From Reclinomonas americana ATCC 50394 (taxonomy: Eukaryota), in assembly GCA_048213135.1 (NCBI GenBank), contig PS015110.1:50221-114220 (forward strand): a stretch of 64,000 bases of DNA, given 5' to 3'. The translations under genes were made by a program, and so were the position numbers. Numbering within the stretch: position 1 is the stretch's first letter; each line of letters starts with the position of its first letter. A model generated the notes under the pieces. It did no database searches. It was not told where the DNA came from and saw nothing but the letters and a program-made list of their open reading frames with translations. This document shows positions 22,664 to 29,163 of the stretch, piece after piece.

Positions 22664-23953
22664 TCAAAGCTCCAAGGTAAACTGCCCACATGCCTCACGC
22701 AGTGCACGCATCACGTCGAGGACCTCCTGCGCGGTCGGTCGATCACGCCTCATACTCATGCACCGCATGCCGAGTTCGAGCATGGGTTCGGCGATGCGTG
22801 CAGTCCATTCCACGCCAGCGTCCACCAGCTCCATGGGGCGCAACGAGGCAGCCGATCGATCCCATCTGACGGACCACTCCACCACTGTAACCACGGGTTT
22901 GCCGGTGACCAGCTGCACCAGCACCACACCCATGCTGTACACATCGTGCTCTGGATCTGGAATCCTCACCCGCATTGCCAGTGGGTCCATGTAGTCCAGA
23001 GTGCCGGCGGCAGTGGTCGTCTGCGAGATCAGAGTGAGATGGAGTGGAAATAAATCGGACTGAGAGCGAACCAACCTTGCCATCAGCAATCGAGCGCGCA
23101 ATACCGAAATCACCGAGACATGGCTCGAAACGATTATCGAGAAGCACATTCGTGGGCTTGATGTCGCGATGCACCACATTGTTCTGCGAGGGAGGCGAGT
23201 GAGGCGAGGCACAGAGTCTGGAACACAGCAAAAAAAAATGGAAATAGTGGGGAAAATGCGAAGCAGGAGAGAATAAGATCTAAAGACAGTCAATAAAACA
23301 GCACGCGCATGGCAGAGGGAAGTGAGAATGAAAGCAAGCACATAAAGGCCTAAAGGTGACTCAAACGAAGAATGACAGACGAATAACAGCATCCACACAG
23401 TGCATACCTTGTGCAACAGCACCACAGCCTCCGCCAACCCGAAACCAATCTGCACACGCTGCACGACAGAGAGCGGTGGACGACCGGCGCGTGGAATAAG
23501 CAATAGATCCTCAAGGTTGGGAACTCTGCGTGCCTTCACAGTGAGATGATGATGGATGAGAAGGAGAAGGAAAGAGAGAGATGAACACGCACTGCAAGGC
23601 CTTGTACACGAGACAGCGTGCCTTGTCATCGCCCACCGAGTAGCCGACAAGAGGCACAATGCGACGATGACGAAGTCGTCCGAGGGTGGCCACCTGGAGG
23701 ATGAGAAGAATGGATGAGAAGGAAGAGAGATAAGGCGTAGAAAAAGGAGAAGGGACGAGACAGACCTCACTCTCAAACGACTCCATCGTCCACGGTGCGT
23801 CGGGGTCGAGCACCTTGACAGCCACGTGCATCTCACGAAGATAGCAGATGTAAACGGCACCCTGACCACCCTCGCCGACTTTGAGGCGTGGTGAGAATGA
23901 ATCGGTGGCGTGCACGATCTCGGGCCACTCAAAGCGCTGCACGGCGGTGTCGA
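22664..23953 (-). CDS. Pelle/IRAK/RLK-type protein kinase domain (C-terminal part of the USP7-like gene)
   Basis: Exons 23953-23766, 23693-23593, ~23525-23408, ~23183-23076 and ~23021-22664 give RFEWPEIVHATDSFSPRLKVGEGGQGAVY, VAVK, LGRLRHRRIVPLVGY, LSVVQRVQIGFGLAEAVVLLH, VVHRDIKPTNVLLD, LGDFGIAR, AGTLDYMDP, DVYSMGVVLVQLVTGKP and LGMRC..RDRP. All catalytic motifs are intact. Confidence 0.9.
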   Translation of the reverse strand, partial: STPPCSALSGPRSCTPPIHSHHASKSARVVRVPFTSAIFVRCTWLSRCSTPTHRGRWSRLRVRSVSSLLLFLRLISLPSHPFFSSSRWPPSDDFVIVALCLLSATRWAMTRHAVSCTRPCSACSSLSFLLLLIHHHLTVKARRVPNLEDLLLIPRAGRPPLSVVQRVQIGFGLAEAVVLLHKVCTVWMLLFVCHSSFESPLGLYVLAFILTSLCHARAVLLTVFRSYSLLLRIFPTISIFFCCVPDSVPRLTRLPRRTMWCIATSSPRMCFSIIVSSHVSVISVLRARLLMARLVRSQSDLFPLHLTLISQTTTAAGTLDYMDPLAMRVRIPDPEHDVYSMGVVLVQLVTGKPVVTVVEWSVRWDRSAASLRPMELVDAGVEWTARIAEPMLELGMRCMSMRRDRPTAQEVLDVMRALREACGQFTLEL

Positions 23954-24051
23954 CTGTGGATGGTTCGTTGAGAGGTGAGAAGTGGGTGCGAATAATGGAC
24001 ACAAACACGCTTGAAAACAACATCAAGAAAAAGACAGGACACGAGACAGAC

Positions 24052-27000: not shown

Positions 27001-29163
27001 AGTTATCTTCGACGGCCTCCTTCTCAGTTGCGGGTGTAACGCGCTCATCATCAATCCTGAGCCAGTTGCCCCGAAGGCCAGGGCGCAAATACACGTAGTA
27101 ATGGCCGCCCGACACGCCGCCCGAGTGCACTAGAACCGACAACAGCAAGTAGTCGTTGCGCACAGACTTATCGGCCTCCGGTGCCATGTACGCATCAAGG
27201 TTCATCTCAGTCGGGAATTCGTAGCGATCATCAATCTGCACCCCAACATGAAGTTCAGTTGCGCGCCTCCCAGCAGATCGGCATGTGTGCACTCAATACC
27301 TTGGAAAAGATATTCGTCGCGGCGTCGTACTCAAAGCGTTTGAGCTGCAGAACGAGAACCGGCGGCAGCGACAAGAACTGGTGCCTTTTTGTGGCTGCCC
27401 TGTTGCCCAAACCAAGATAGGATTGGCTGGCGCGACTAACGCCCTCCAAGCCGGTAAACTTGTTAAACGAGTCAAGAACACCGTTGCAGCCCTTCACAAG
27501 AAGCGGCAACTCGAGGAAGGATTCCGCGTGTGGCGATGAAGAGTAGTTGCGCTTCGCGTGCTGGTCGAGGCTTTTCACACGACTGCAAAATATTGCACTC
27601 ACGGTGCCCTCTTGCGGTGTTCCCTGCAACCCAAAAGGGTATCAGAGACGTAATTTGCGGAACAAGAAAAATCGTGCGCACACCTTTAGCTTCTCGTCGA
27701 CGTTGTCGACCAACGTACACAGTACCTCCTGTGCGTCGTATTGCACATATGCATCCATTGCACTCCAACCAAATGACTTGGTCAAGACCTTGGTTGAGAC
27801 GACGTCGGGTGAGACCTGCAAACGCCAGAATGTGTACTGGAGAGCGAGTGGAATGTTGCGAGATGCATCTTCCAAGTGCAACAGTTCCATGCGATTGAGC
27901 GCACGTCGGAAGTGAGGAACATGGTACAAGATCTGCAGAAATACGTTGATGGAAGCAGTTGCGCCCTGATTGCGCAATCCCACGCAGCCCGTCTCTGTGC
28001 GAGCGTCGTAGCTGTTACGACAAAATTTGAGCGCAGTGTTTCAGTGAATCATAGTGACAATCGACACGCCCACAGACAATTGCGTACTCATGGTATGCCC
28101 AACCGAAGAATTGGTCTTTCATCACCTCGATTCGAGCTTCAATGACAAGCGTGTCATTCACAAGGCTGACGGCGAGAAGCAAGTCATGCACATGTAATGC
28201 AACAAACACAAACTATGCGACTGCACGCAACAAGCCCTCGGCTTCTGTCAGCTTGGATACATGCAGAAACTGGCCAAACCCCCAGCTGGGCTCCTGCTTG
28301 TTGAACTGTTTGCGAGTTTCTGCGTGGGAACAACACCTGGTGAGTAGAATGAGGCGGAAAACTGACGGGAAACAAGACAAACCCTGGAAGTAGGAATCGC
28401 GCATGTCCAACTGGTTAACCACACCAAGACGGAACTCAGTGTACCGGGTACAATAGTCATAGCTTGGAGAGCAATCAGCGAAGAACAAAGAAGTGAATCA
28501 GCCGGTACACAGCACGATGACGCACCGTTGTGACTGTGTGTCAGCACAACAAAGATACAATGACACATGCCTGTCGTGTTGGCGGCCGTTGGGAACCATC
28601 AGAAGCCGCCTACGCGGAGAAAGAATAAGTATCTAAAGCAATTGCGTCGAGCATCTCGTTAGACGTATCACGTGCAGAGAGAGGGAGAGAATAGAAGAGA
28701 AAGATGTGTGAGTAGATAGAAGGAAAGCACACGAGACTTGTTGGCGATCACTGGTAGATGCTCATTGTTGTGTGTGTCCCAGTGAAGTTTCTATTATTCA
28801 GAGAGAAGAACACTCACCACGGAGCGCCGGCGCACTCAAACACCTCCGAGTGCGTGCCCTGCGTCACTTGACCAAAGTTGGTCAACTTCCAGCGCACAAT
28901 TTGGAACGTTGCTGTGCCACAAACAAGAGAAAGAAGGTCAATGCGGCTCAATCTCCCACGGTGTCAATCTCTCATCCGCACAAACACGCTCACGAGTGAT
29001 GCTCTTCACGAGATAGACACCAGCAGGCTTGCCGGAATCATCAAACGCCCGCTCCTCATCTGCACGCCAATGTGAGGAACGAGACCGAGTTTCGCTGCGC
29101 TCTCACTTGCTCACCACCAATAGCCTCCACTTGCGCTGCTGAGGACAGAGCAGAGCGCTCCAT
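24052..29163 (-). CDS. USP7/Ubp15-like protein (MATH domain, USP domain with catalytic Cys read as Ala, UBL region, Gln-rich coiled coil); apparently spliced to the kinase downstream
   Basis: MATH motifs VRWKLTNF..SEVFECAGAPW, FRLGVVNQ, SWGFGQF, VNDTLVIEARIEV. YDARTETGCVGLRNQGATASINVFLQILY (canonical is GLKNQGATCYMN), LTKSFGW..QYDAQE, LPPVLVLQLKRFEYD, DDRYEFP, LVHSGGVSGGHYYVYLRP..WLRIDDERV, AVEDNYG, MLVYVR. C-terminal UBL-like motifs LLLFKFYDP, LVHGDILVFQ, LRVEEIP, IGIEHRD. The start at 29163 is inferred. Confidence 0.88.
28717..28787 (+). repeat. Third, partial copy of the inverted-repeat arm seen at 30672 and 31317
   Basis: TAGAAGGAAAGCACACGAGACTTGTTGGCGATCACTGGTAGATGCTCATTGTTGTGT is nearly identical to ~31248-31303. 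Confidence 0.85.

What the first reader, a model, noticed from the sequence alone, without database searches (positions are those of the whole stretch)
22664..29163. MATH-USP7-like protein fused to a Pelle/IRAK/RLK kinase
Seen: the USP7-like frame continues past the usual C-terminus into a Gln-rich linker and coiled coil. A 98-nt GT-AG intron (24051-23954) then joins it in phase 1 (LAL-V-DTAVQRFEWPEIVHAT) to a kinase with intact GEGGQG, VAVK, HRDIKPTN and DFG. There is no room for a separate promoter. Established: USP7/Ubp15 normally lacks a kinase, and a coiled coil before an FxxxEIxxAT kinase recalls plant U-box RLCKs. Inference: a novel ubiquitin-sensing signalling kinase, or a USP7 decoy coupled to an immune-type kinase.
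Basis: partly seen in the sequence, partly recalled or inferred. Interest (0 to 1): 0.8.

Follow-up and report, generated by a model that had tools for sequence, protein, structure and literature searches.

The report
Dead USP7 fused to RLCK-type kinase
One intron-rich eukaryotic gene appears to encode a USP7-type deubiquitinase that has lost its catalytic cysteine, joined through a dimerising coiled coil to a plant/IRAK-type protein kinase, a domain combination not found elsewhere in the searches made, though no transcript evidence could be obtained.

Summary
A 22-exon minus-strand model (29163-22664; 21 GT-AG introns of 48-224 nt) gives a stop-free 1590-aa protein. Residues 20-1079 are 45.8% identical to a canonical 1117-aa USP7 (P0004). 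The frame runs past the USP7 C-terminal peptide (AIWIRN) into a 50-aa Gln-rich linker, a 128-aa helix and a complete five-exon kinase domain.

His and Asp are kept, so the USP7 part is probably non-catalytic.

The kinase is RLK/Pelle/IRAK-like. Its best full-domain matches are plant U-box kinases (PUB35/51/52-like, 34-38% identity).

The helix is predicted to form a parallel homodimer (0.57 against a best control of 0.00).

Weak points:
- No RNA run was listed and no genome is held.
- No homologous fusion turned up: 0 of 151 fetched kinase relatives carry USP7 similarity.
- The proposed acceptor at 23954 is the weakest of the 21 by matrix score.
- A stronger acceptor at 23937 is in frame only with a weak donor.

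I put the fusion at about 0.65. It is a new combination of known domains, and its function is inferred.

The parts
22664..29163 (-). Whole gene model: 22 exons, 21 GT-AG introns (48-224 nt), 4773-nt CDS, 1590 aa, ATG 29163-29161, TGA 22666-22664
   Evidence: The model gives one stop-free frame. Residues 20-1079 align to P0004 at 45.8% identity, 907 bits.
28088..28911 (-). MATH (TRAF-like) domain, exons 3-7. The peptide-pocket motif DWGF of P0004 and P0005 reads SWGF here (Ser136).
   Evidence: tblastn of P0004 gives 34.7% identity over this part. Exon-level Pfam MATH_2 matches are weak but correctly placed (E 0.0038 and 0.0087, below cut-off). Alignment.
26651..28011 (-). USP (UCH, PF00443) catalytic-fold domain, exons 8-11
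   Evidence: Pfam UCH on three exons: E 4.5e-14, 3.5e-05 and 9.3e-17. His box GGHYYVYL and the aligned Asp (IDDERV) are kept. An insertion (GYSNWDVPVGH) is shared with P0004 and absent from P0005.
27954..27956 (-). GCT (Ala199) at the position of the catalytic Cys. The Cys box reads GATASINV, against GATCYMNS in P0004 and P0005.
   Evidence: Changing GCT to a Cys codon needs two base changes, and the neighbouring residues also differ (Y200S, M201I, S203V).
24590..26583 (-). USP7 ubiquitin-like tail (exons 12-17, first part), ending in the conserved C-terminal peptide AIWIRN (24607-24590), which is internal here
   Evidence: Pfam USP7_ICP0_bdg E 6.4e-16 and USP7_C2 E 1.3e-08. USP7_C2 E 6.8e-15 and USP7_ICP0_bdg E 0.00087. 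Alignment to the ends of P0004 and P0005.
24440..24589 (-). 50-codon Gln-rich linker (aa 1122-1171), in the same exon and frame as the USP7 tail. Holds an in-frame Met1163 (24466-24464).
   Evidence: Low pLDDT (29-42) in the single-sequence model. No codon signal of its own.
24053..24439 (-). Coiled coil (aa 1172-1300): one long helix running to the exon end. Holds Met1178 (24421-24419).
   Evidence: AlphaFold2 gives helix 162-289 of the exon with pLDDT 88-97. Predicted parallel in-register homodimer, score 0.57 against best control 0.00, pLDDT 91, runs agree in 100% of contacts. Codon score +20.6 against -61.1 and -63.1. Weak Pfam coiled-coil matches.
23954..24051 (-). Proposed 98-nt phase-1 intron. 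It holds the TGA (24025-24023) of the unspliced USP7 frame and an ATG (24023-24021) in the kinase frame.
   Evidence: The donor GTCTGTCT is identical to that of the next intron and ranks 13 of 21. The acceptor ranks 21 of 21 by matrix. A CTCAC branch-like motif lies 22 nt upstream, and 23955-23954 is the first AG after it.
22667..23953 (-). Kinase domain in five exons (aa 1301-1590): GEGGQG, VAVK, HRDIKPTN and DFG intact, APE reads DPL. The protein ends right after the kinase.
   Evidence: Pfam Pkinase on exons: E 7.4e-09 and 1.9e-07. PDB best matches are IRAK4, IRAK1, LysM receptor kinases and CERK1. The joined domain aligns over about 260-290 aa to plant kinases at E 1e-50 to 1e-42.

Best explanation
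This is a single gene for a roughly 1590-aa fusion protein. From the N-terminus it carries:
- a TRAF-like MATH domain;
- a USP7-type USP fold whose nucleophile Cys is Ala, so probably a non-hydrolysing pseudo-deubiquitinase;
- the USP7 ubiquitin-like tail with its activating peptide now internal;
- a disordered Gln-rich linker;
- a roughly 128-aa coiled coil;
- an RD-type RLK/Pelle/IRAK-family kinase with all catalytic residues.

Shown: the continuous frame, the domain identities, the Cys-to-Ala change, the long helix, and the kinase's affinity to plant RLCK/U-box kinases.

Inferred: the coiled coil holds two chains in parallel so that the kinases can phosphorylate each other's Thr-rich activation loop. 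The dead USP7 module then serves as the targeting or sensing part. It would bind MATH-domain ligands and perhaps ubiquitin or ubiquitylated proteins without cleaving them, and so bring the kinase to them or switch it on. The gene is most likely a diverged paralogue of a canonical USP7, made by loss of the USP7 stop codon in front of a coiled-coil-kinase gene or by exon capture.
For: Gene model:
- 22 exons and 21 GT-AG introns give a stop-free 1590 aa.
- The USP7 part is 45.8% identical to P0004 over 1091 columns.
- Pfam finds UCH, USP7_ICP0_bdg and USP7_C2 on the exons.

The USP7 tail and the coiled coil lie in one exon and one frame:
- The 179 codons were open in 12 of 5000 shuffles.
- The helix codes only in that frame.

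Pseudo-enzyme status:
- Cys box GATASINV against GATCYMNS in both relatives.
- 142 changes unique to this protein against 71 in P0004, with P0005 as outgroup; chi-square 23.7 on 1015 shared columns.

The helix and its pairing:
- The helix has pLDDT 88-97 and runs to the junction.
- Predicted homodimer 0.57 against best control 0.00, pLDDT 91, 100% contact agreement. The mark was reached by 21 of 30 solved homo-pairs and 0 of 23 single chains in the tool's calibration.

The kinase:
- It is complete only when the five exons are joined.
- It then aligns end to end with plant kinases. The best of these are U-box kinases, which also carry a long helix directly before the kinase.
- It has no upstream in-frame ATG of its own, apart from one inside the proposed intron.
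- A CTCAC branch-like motif lies 22 nt before acceptor 23954. The range in 15 of the 20 other introns is 7-29 nt.
Against: - There is no transcript evidence at all.
- No related fusion was found. 0 of 151 fetched kinase relatives show USP7 similarity. 0 of the 25 scanned by Pfam carry UCH, MATH or USP7 domains. The only close USP7 relative, P0004, ends canonically.
- Acceptor 23954 is the weakest of 21 by matrix: 310 of 329 unused AGs in the gene score as high or higher.
- The stronger acceptor at 23937, paired with the good donor at 24051, is out of frame and stops after two codons.
- The 50-codon linker has no codon signal. It could be former intergenic sequence, with in-frame Mets at 1163 and 1178.
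- The scaffold is a draft with 18 N runs in 64 kb.
- The coiled coil alone has no significant sequence similarity to the plant pre-kinase helices (best E 0.006 in a set of 151). That likeness is architectural only.
- The kinase lacks the Glu of APE.
- Ubiquitin binding and kinase activity are untested.
Confidence: 0.65

Rival explanations
1. There are two products rather than one. The USP7 and coiled-coil protein ends at the TGA inside the retained intron (24025-24023), or two codons after a 24051-to-23937 splice. The kinase is made from its own mRNA, starting at ATG 24023-24021.
For: ATG 24023-24021 is in the kinase frame, 24 codons upstream of exon 18, and overlaps the TGA of the USP7 frame. 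Acceptor 23954 is the weakest of 21, and the best donor with the best acceptor is out of frame.
Against: - The 98 nt look like the gene's other introns. The donor octamer is the same as the next intron's, the 3' end is pyrimidine-rich, and there is a CTCAC motif 22 nt from the AG.
- A promoter would have to sit inside the coiled-coil coding exon.
- The related plant kinases carry a long helix directly before the kinase, which this product would lack.
- The 24 extra codons are T/C-rich like an intron.
Confidence: 0.12
2. Two adjacent genes are read as one. A canonical USP7 gene would end after AIWIRN. A separate coiled-coil-kinase gene would start at Met1163 or Met1178. The missing stop would be a sequencing or assembly error (CAA where a stop stood), or the coiled-coil-kinase is also expressed from an internal promoter.
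For: The codon after AIWIRN is CAA, one change from TAA. The 50-codon linker has no codon signal. Met1178 has a purine at -3 and G at +4. The assembly is a draft. P0004 and P0005 end exactly at this peptide.
Against: - An error would have to remove the stop, leave 41-56 further codons open, and land in the frame of the downstream gene.
- The spacer of 123-168 nt would have to hold a 3' UTR, a promoter and a 5' UTR. No coding match was found for about 3 kb beyond the gene's stop.
- All 22 exons keep frame, so the local sequence looks accurate.
- The USP7 part is itself aberrant (Cys to Ala, twofold rate), which fits a re-purposed paralogue better than a canonical gene read wrongly.
Confidence: 0.13
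3. The locus is a decaying, non-functional duplicate of USP7 that happens to abut a kinase gene.
For: Loss of the catalytic Cys, Asp to Ser in the MATH pocket motif, and twice as many unique substitutions as P0004.
Against: - 1590 codons over 22 exons have no stop or frameshift, and all 21 introns keep GT-AG.
- Codon use is frame-specific throughout: USP7 +368.6, kinase +67.8, against strongly negative scores in the other frames.
- The His box, the Asp, the tail domains and every kinase catalytic motif are retained.
Confidence: 0.05

Closest known systems
USP7 / HAUSP / Ubp15 / plant UBP12-UBP13 family
   Same: The order of parts is the same: MATH, USP fold, five-UBL tail (USP7_ICP0_bdg and USP7_C2) and the conserved C-terminal peptide. 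Identity is 45.8% to P0004 and 30.1% to a chytrid USP7.
   Different: The nucleophile Cys is Ala. The MATH pocket DWGF reads SWGF. The C-terminal peptide is internal and is followed by about 470 further residues (linker, coiled coil, kinase). Substitution runs at about twice the rate of P0004.
Plant PUB-VI / RLCK-IXb U-box kinases (PUB32-35, PUB50-52)
   Same: Both have a long alpha-helical, probably dimerising, domain directly before an RLK/Pelle-type kinase that opens with F/Y-x-W-x-E-I-x-x-AT. Both link a kinase physically to a ubiquitin-system domain. These are the best full-domain matches (34-38% identity). The family's architecture and PUB33 homomerisation come from passages of preprint 10.64898/2026.02.10.704836.
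   Different: There is no U-box: the protein ends after the kinase, and three downstream minus-strand ORFs have no Pfam match. There is no UspA domain. The ubiquitin-system partner is an N-terminal dead deubiquitinase, not a C-terminal E3 ligase. In the tree it sits on a long branch outside the well-supported plant clade.
IRAK / Pelle kinases of animals
   Same: IRAK4 is the best solved-structure match for the C-lobe exon (E 2.3e-05), and IRAK1 is among the best for the N-lobe exon (E 3.6e-05). Both are RD kinases with an HRDIK-type catalytic loop.
   Different: No death domain. The E-values are exon-level and modest. No tree with IRAK sequences could be built here.
Pseudo-deubiquitinases fused to another enzyme, for example PAN2/USP52
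   Same: A USP fold without the canonical catalytic residues sits in one chain with a second catalytic domain that carries the activity. Passages of PMC10919355 describe PAN2 with a C-terminal DEDD exonuclease, and pseudo-DUBs as scaffolds or allosteric activators.
   Different: The partner enzyme here is a protein kinase, and the USP fold is specifically of USP7 type with its MATH domain and UBL tail. That review also notes that the inactivity of some 'pseudo-DUBs' has been questioned.

Membership tests
USP7/HAUSP family | N-terminal MATH (TRAF-like) domain | tested here: met
   Aligns to the MATH part of P0004, which carries PF00917 and PF22486. Exon-level MATH_2 matches are E 0.0038 and 0.0087, below cut-off because the exons are 27-76 aa.
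USP7/HAUSP family | USP (PF00443) fold with Cys-His-Asp catalytic triad | tested here: not met
   The fold is met: UCH E 4.5e-14 and 9.3e-17. The triad is not: Cys reads Ala199 (GCT 27956-27954), while His and Asp are kept.
USP7/HAUSP family | USP7-specific UBL tail (USP7_ICP0_bdg, USP7_C2) | tested here: met
   PF12436 E 6.4e-16; PF14533 E 6.8e-15 and 1.3e-08.
USP7/HAUSP family | Protein ends with the conserved C-terminal peptide (activating peptide; its role is recalled from the literature, not from a call) | tested here: not met
   The AIWIRN motif is present and aligned to the PLKINN and AIKIFN ends of P0004 and P0005, but about 470 residues follow it.
RLK/Pelle/IRAK kinase family (TKL group) | Complete eukaryotic protein kinase domain with catalytic Lys, HRD, Asn and DFG | tested here: met
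   The joined domain aligns over about 260-290 aa to plant RLK/RLCK kinases. APE reads DPL.
RLK/Pelle/IRAK kinase family (TKL group) | Closer to RLK/Pelle/IRAK than to other kinase families | tested here: inconclusive
   Best solved matches are IRAK4, IRAK1, LysM receptor kinases, CERK1 and SYMRK, but Aurora A follows closely for the C-lobe exon. All 21 of the 30 looked-up clusters that carry an organism name are from plants or a streptophyte alga. No tree with outgroup kinase families was possible.
Plant PUB-VI / RLCK-IXb | Long alpha-helical domain directly N-terminal to the kinase | tested here: met
   A helix of about 128 aa ends at the junction. The family feature comes from passages of the preprint. 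Sequence similarity of the helix itself is not significant.
Plant PUB-VI / RLCK-IXb | C-terminal U-box | tested here: not met
   The stop follows the kinase directly. There is no Pfam match in three minus-strand ORFs within about 1.1 kb downstream.
Plant PUB-VI / RLCK-IXb | Kinase domain nested in the RLCK-IXb clade | tested here: inconclusive
   Quick tree of 49 rows: the kinase falls in an 18-row set with all 5 U-box rows (SH-aLRT 89, not starred), but outside the starred 12-row clade and on a long branch of 1.63. Only 48 of 149 matched representatives had 240 aa or more aligned and were used.
Plant PUB-VI / RLCK-IXb | N-terminal UspA (universal stress protein) domain | tested here: not met
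   The N-terminal 1121 aa are a USP7 module. No UspA match appeared in any exon scan.

The most novel reading that the evidence does not exclude
This would be an integrated-bait sensor in a protist. A catalytically dead copy of USP7, a hub that many viruses and pathogens bind, is wired through a dimerising coiled coil to an IRAK/RLCK-type kinase. Anything that engages the bait (an effector, a viral USP7-binding protein or a ubiquitin chain) would switch on a phosphorylation signal. This is the logic of plant decoy kinases and NLR integrated decoys, here built from a deubiquitinase and found outside plants and animals.
Probability: 0.08. Interest if true: 0.85.

Novelty: new variant of a known kind. 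Interest (0 to 1): 0.55.

Why it matters
A kinase and a ubiquitin-system domain in one chain is a rare, informative arrangement. Plants have kinase-U-box proteins. A reviewed case from plants is that the USP7 orthologues UBP12 and UBP13 bind and deubiquitinate the receptor kinase BRI1 (passages of PMC13468676).

If this natural USP7-kinase fusion is real, it would be a 'Rosetta stone' link between USP7-type scaffolds and RLK/IRAK-type kinases outside plants and animals. It would also be a clean example of a USP7 fold kept for a non-catalytic job. It offers a testable system: does a dead USP7 still bind ubiquitin or MATH ligands, and does that control a kinase?

If the two halves turn out to be separate products, the locus is still a diverged USP7 paralogue without its nucleophile, which is of modest interest.

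Tried and rejected
- RNA evidence: no RNA holder was listed for 22400-29150.
- Own genome: none is held. The search for a canonical USP7 paralogue could not be made.
- Word-based protein searches:
  - Exon 17 region against longer proteins gave only P0004.
  - The kinase C-lobe against proteins of 792-2260 aa gave nothing among 196 candidates.
  - The USP7 tail, residues 21-240, gave P0004 and one chytrid protein, neither with a kinase.
- Metagenome scan: one locus, L001, at 37% identity. It lies on a 3530-nt contig that ends before the USP7 C-terminus, so it says nothing about a fusion.
- Earlier findings of this scan: nothing by place, words or sequence.
- Protein atlas: only generic UCH clusters for the His-box exon and nothing above 0.77 for exon 17.
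- Literature: two full-text searches for a USP7/deubiquitinase-kinase fusion architecture listed only papers on USP7 substrates or oncogenic kinase fusions. I saw listings and abstract starts only. This is no proof that the architecture is unpublished, and no InterPro-style architecture query was available. Supplementary files of papers were not consulted.
- A U-box exon downstream of the stop: none.
- Homology of the coiled coil itself to the plant pre-kinase helices: not significant.
- Trans-splicing at the 23954 acceptor as the start of a separate kinase mRNA: considered and rejected. The first in-frame ATG downstream lies after the Gly loop.
- Organism: not identified. The USP7 part has only one close relative (P0004, unnamed source), and the kinase's nearest matches are plants at 34-38% identity.
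Full report
WHAT IS THERE

The finding lies on the minus strand of a draft eukaryotic scaffold with 18 runs of N in 64 kb. I read the region directly. I then used the one close relative found, a canonical 1117-aa USP7 from an unnamed source (P0004), as a guide by tblastn.

This gave a model of 22 exons from ATG 29163-29161 to TGA 22666-22664. All 21 introns are GT-AG and 48-224 nt long. The joined CDS is 4773 nt and encodes 1590 residues with no internal stop.

Residues 20-1079 align to P0004 at 45.8% identity over 1091 columns (907 bits). 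They align to a chytrid USP7 (P0005) at 30.1%. Exon-level Pfam scans give:
- UCH: E 4.5e-14, 3.5e-05 and 9.3e-17.
- USP7_ICP0_bdg: E 6.4e-16.
- USP7_C2: E 6.8e-15 and 1.3e-08.
- MATH_2: weak but correctly placed matches.

An insertion in the USP domain (GYSNWDVPVGH) is shared with P0004 and absent from P0005. P0004 is therefore from the same lineage, or is the canonical counterpart of this gene.

THE OBSERVATION

- P0004 and P0005 end at PLKINN and AIKIFN. Here the aligned AIWIRN (24607-24590) is followed by CAA, and the frame stays open through the rest of exon 17 to 24053.
- GT at 24051 and AG at 23955-23954 bound 98 nt. Joining in phase 1 gives ...LAL-V-DTAVQRFEWPEIVHAT.
- The kinase motifs named (GEGGQG, VAVK, HRDIKPTN, DFG) are present. 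They are spread over five exons, which only together make a full domain of about 290 aa.
- The 179 codons between the USP7 end and the junction were open in 12 of 5000 shuffles, while the other frames hold 6 and 5 stops. The helical part scores as coding only in the USP7 frame (+20.6 against -61.1 and -63.1).
- The 50-codon Gln-rich linker on its own carries no codon signal (-6.7, 0.0, -26.1). Neither does the poorly conserved USP7 tail just before it (-8.3).

The USP Cys box reads GATASINV where P0004 and P0005 read GATCYMNS. The nucleophile Cys is therefore Ala199 (GCT, 27956-27954). This is two base changes from a Cys codon, and the neighbouring residues also differ. The His box and the aligned Asp are kept.

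The MATH pocket motif DWGF of both relatives reads SWGF. The importance of that Asp for peptide binding in human USP7 is recalled from memory, not from a call.

With P0005 as outgroup, this protein has 142 unique substitutions against 71 in P0004 on 1015 shared columns (chi-square 23.7). The USP7 module is thus intact as a fold but has lost the canonical nucleophile and evolves about twice as fast. That is the signature of a re-purposed paralogue rather than of a housekeeping USP7. Whether a canonical USP7 exists in the same genome could not be tested, because no genome is held.

THE COILED COIL

A single-sequence AlphaFold2 model of exon 17 shows:
- a low-confidence stretch at exon residues 54-160, which covers the end of the USP7 tail and the linker;
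- one helix, residues 162-289 of the exon (protein 1172-1299), with pLDDT 88-97, running to the last residue before the junction.

Two copies of residues 1178-1300 are predicted to pair as a parallel, in-register coiled coil with a 3-4 contact spacing. The score is 0.57 against a best control of 0.00. Partner pLDDT is 91 and the runs agree in 100% of contacts. In the tool's calibration the mark was reached by 21 of 30 solved homo-pairs and 0 of 23 single chains. Long helices may pass partly from likeness to known coiled coils. This supports dimerisation but does not show it.

THE KINASE

Solved structures:
- The N-lobe exon best matches LysM receptor kinases, IRAK1 and CERK1.
- The C-lobe exon best matches IRAK4, followed by Aurora A and SYMRK.

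An exhaustive HMMER search with the N-lobe found 322 proteins at E up to 0.001 and 4 at E up to 1e-10. The top scorers are angiosperm proteins with several tandem kinase domains, whose scores add up.

I then ranked the 150 listed hits with the joined full domain inside the script box. The best are at 34-38% identity and E 1e-50 to 1e-42. They are named U-box domain-containing protein 35, 51 or 52, or RING-type E3 ubiquitin transferase. Of the 10 single-domain hits scanned, 4 carry a Pfam U-box.

According to passages of preprint 10.64898/2026.02.10.704836, this PUB-VI/RLCK-IXb group has the order UspA, long alpha-helical domain, RLCK, U-box. Its helix is predicted to dimerise, and PUB33 forms homomers.

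In a quick tree of 49 rows, the kinase sits on a long branch (1.63) in an 18-row set with all five U-box rows (SH-aLRT 89, not starred). It lies outside the starred plant clade. The tree has three limits:
- Only 48 of 149 matched representatives had 240 aa or more aligned and were used.
- All were pre-selected by N-lobe similarity.
- No IRAK or other outgroup was available.

The helix itself has no significant sequence similarity to the plant helices, so the likeness upstream of the kinase is architectural. There is no U-box here: the protein ends with the kinase, and three downstream ORFs have no Pfam match. All catalytic residues of an active RD kinase are present. The Glu of APE is Leu.

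IS IT ONE PROTEIN?

For:
- The USP7 tail and the coiled coil share one exon and one frame, so no splicing decision is needed to link them.
- The kinase has no usable start of its own. The only upstream in-frame ATG is inside the proposed intron, and the next one lies after the Gly loop.
- Its relatives carry a helix in just this position.
- The donor octamer is identical to that of the next intron and ranks 13 of 21.
- A CTCAC branch-like motif lies 22 nt before 23954, which is the first AG after it. In 15 of the 20 other introns the nearest such motif lies 7-29 nt before the acceptor.

Against:
- By position matrix, acceptor 23954 is the weakest of the 21. Of 329 unused AGs in the gene, 310 score as high or higher.
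- A strong acceptor at 23937 is in frame only with a weak donor at 24040. That 104-nt intron gives ...LALGLSR-RFEW... and still a fusion.
- Donor 24051 with acceptor 23937 is out of frame and stops after two codons.
- Mets at 1163 and 1178 could start a separate coiled-coil-kinase protein.
- The codon after AIWIRN is CAA, one change from TAA.
- No RNA run was listed.
- No homologous fusion was found:
  - 0 of 151 fetched kinase relatives show USP7 similarity.
  - 0 of 25 Pfam-scanned hits carry USP7-type domains.
  - The word-based searches returned only canonical USP7s, and none for the kinase among long proteins.
  - The single metagenome locus is cut short.

Weighing these, I put a translated fusion at about 0.65. 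Separate products by intron retention or an own start get about 0.12. Two genes read as one, or an internal promoter, get about 0.13. A decaying pseudogene gets about 0.05.

HOW IT LIKELY WORKS (INFERENCE)

The coiled coil would hold two chains in parallel. That places two RD kinases side by side for trans-phosphorylation of the Thr-rich activation loop. The dead USP7 module would then be the input or targeting part, with three possible binding surfaces:
- its MATH domain, which has an altered pocket;
- its USP fold, which keeps most of its structure without the nucleophile;
- its UBL tail.

These could bind ligands, ubiquitin or ubiquitylated proteins without cleaving them. A review describes pseudo-deubiquitinases as acting this way, as scaffolds or allosteric partners. 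It also describes PAN2 as a USP fold in one chain with a second enzyme (passages of PMC10919355).

A functional link between USP7 orthologues and RLK-type kinases is known in plants. UBP12 and UBP13 bind and deubiquitinate BRI1 (passages of PMC13468676).

IRAK-class kinases outside plants and animals are not new. Five are reported in Phytophthora infestans (passages of PMC3019232), and an IRAK4-like kinase is inferred for the last eukaryotic common ancestor (one passage of 10.1101/2020.01.27.920793).

VERDICT

- The architecture is a new combination of known domains, seen in a single draft genome of an unidentified, poorly sampled eukaryote.
- There is no expression or conservation evidence.
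- Interest is moderate (0.55). It would rise if cDNA confirms the junction and if a canonical USP7 paralogue coexists in the same genome.

Noticed in passing
window 24923-24970 (minus strand): A 48-nt GT-AG intron inside the USP7_C2 region is a multiple of three and has no stop. Its retention would simply insert 16 residues. P0004 has a gap there.
   Followed up: partly
window 54010-63300: A block of about 65% G+C, against about 52% elsewhere, follows a long N gap. Very long open frames lie on both strands, including a 1758-aa one at 56378-61651 (+). That ORF has no Pfam match. It could be a GC-rich repetitive gene or a foreign or misjoined contig.
   Followed up: partly
window 41674-46922 (minus strand): Several long open frames are rich in Gly, Thr, Ser and Leu, with short recurring units (for example 43405-44679, 425 aa). 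There is no Pfam match.
   Followed up: partly
window 19281-19694 (+): An exon-sized ORF matches Pfam SPA (stabilization of polarity axis, PF08616, E 2.2e-09). It is the nearest recognisable coding sequence beyond the 3' end of the kinase, about 3 kb away.
   Followed up: no
window 9200-11331 (minus strand): Leucine-rich-repeat coding exons (LRR_4 E 7.5e-11) lie among long CT/GA and CACT-type microsatellites. These produce SLSL and THSL pseudo-ORFs throughout the window.
   Followed up: no
window 29186-29205: A 20-N gap and a (CA)n run lie only 23 nt upstream of the proposed start codon, so the 5' UTR and promoter of the gene are not fully assembled.
   Followed up: no
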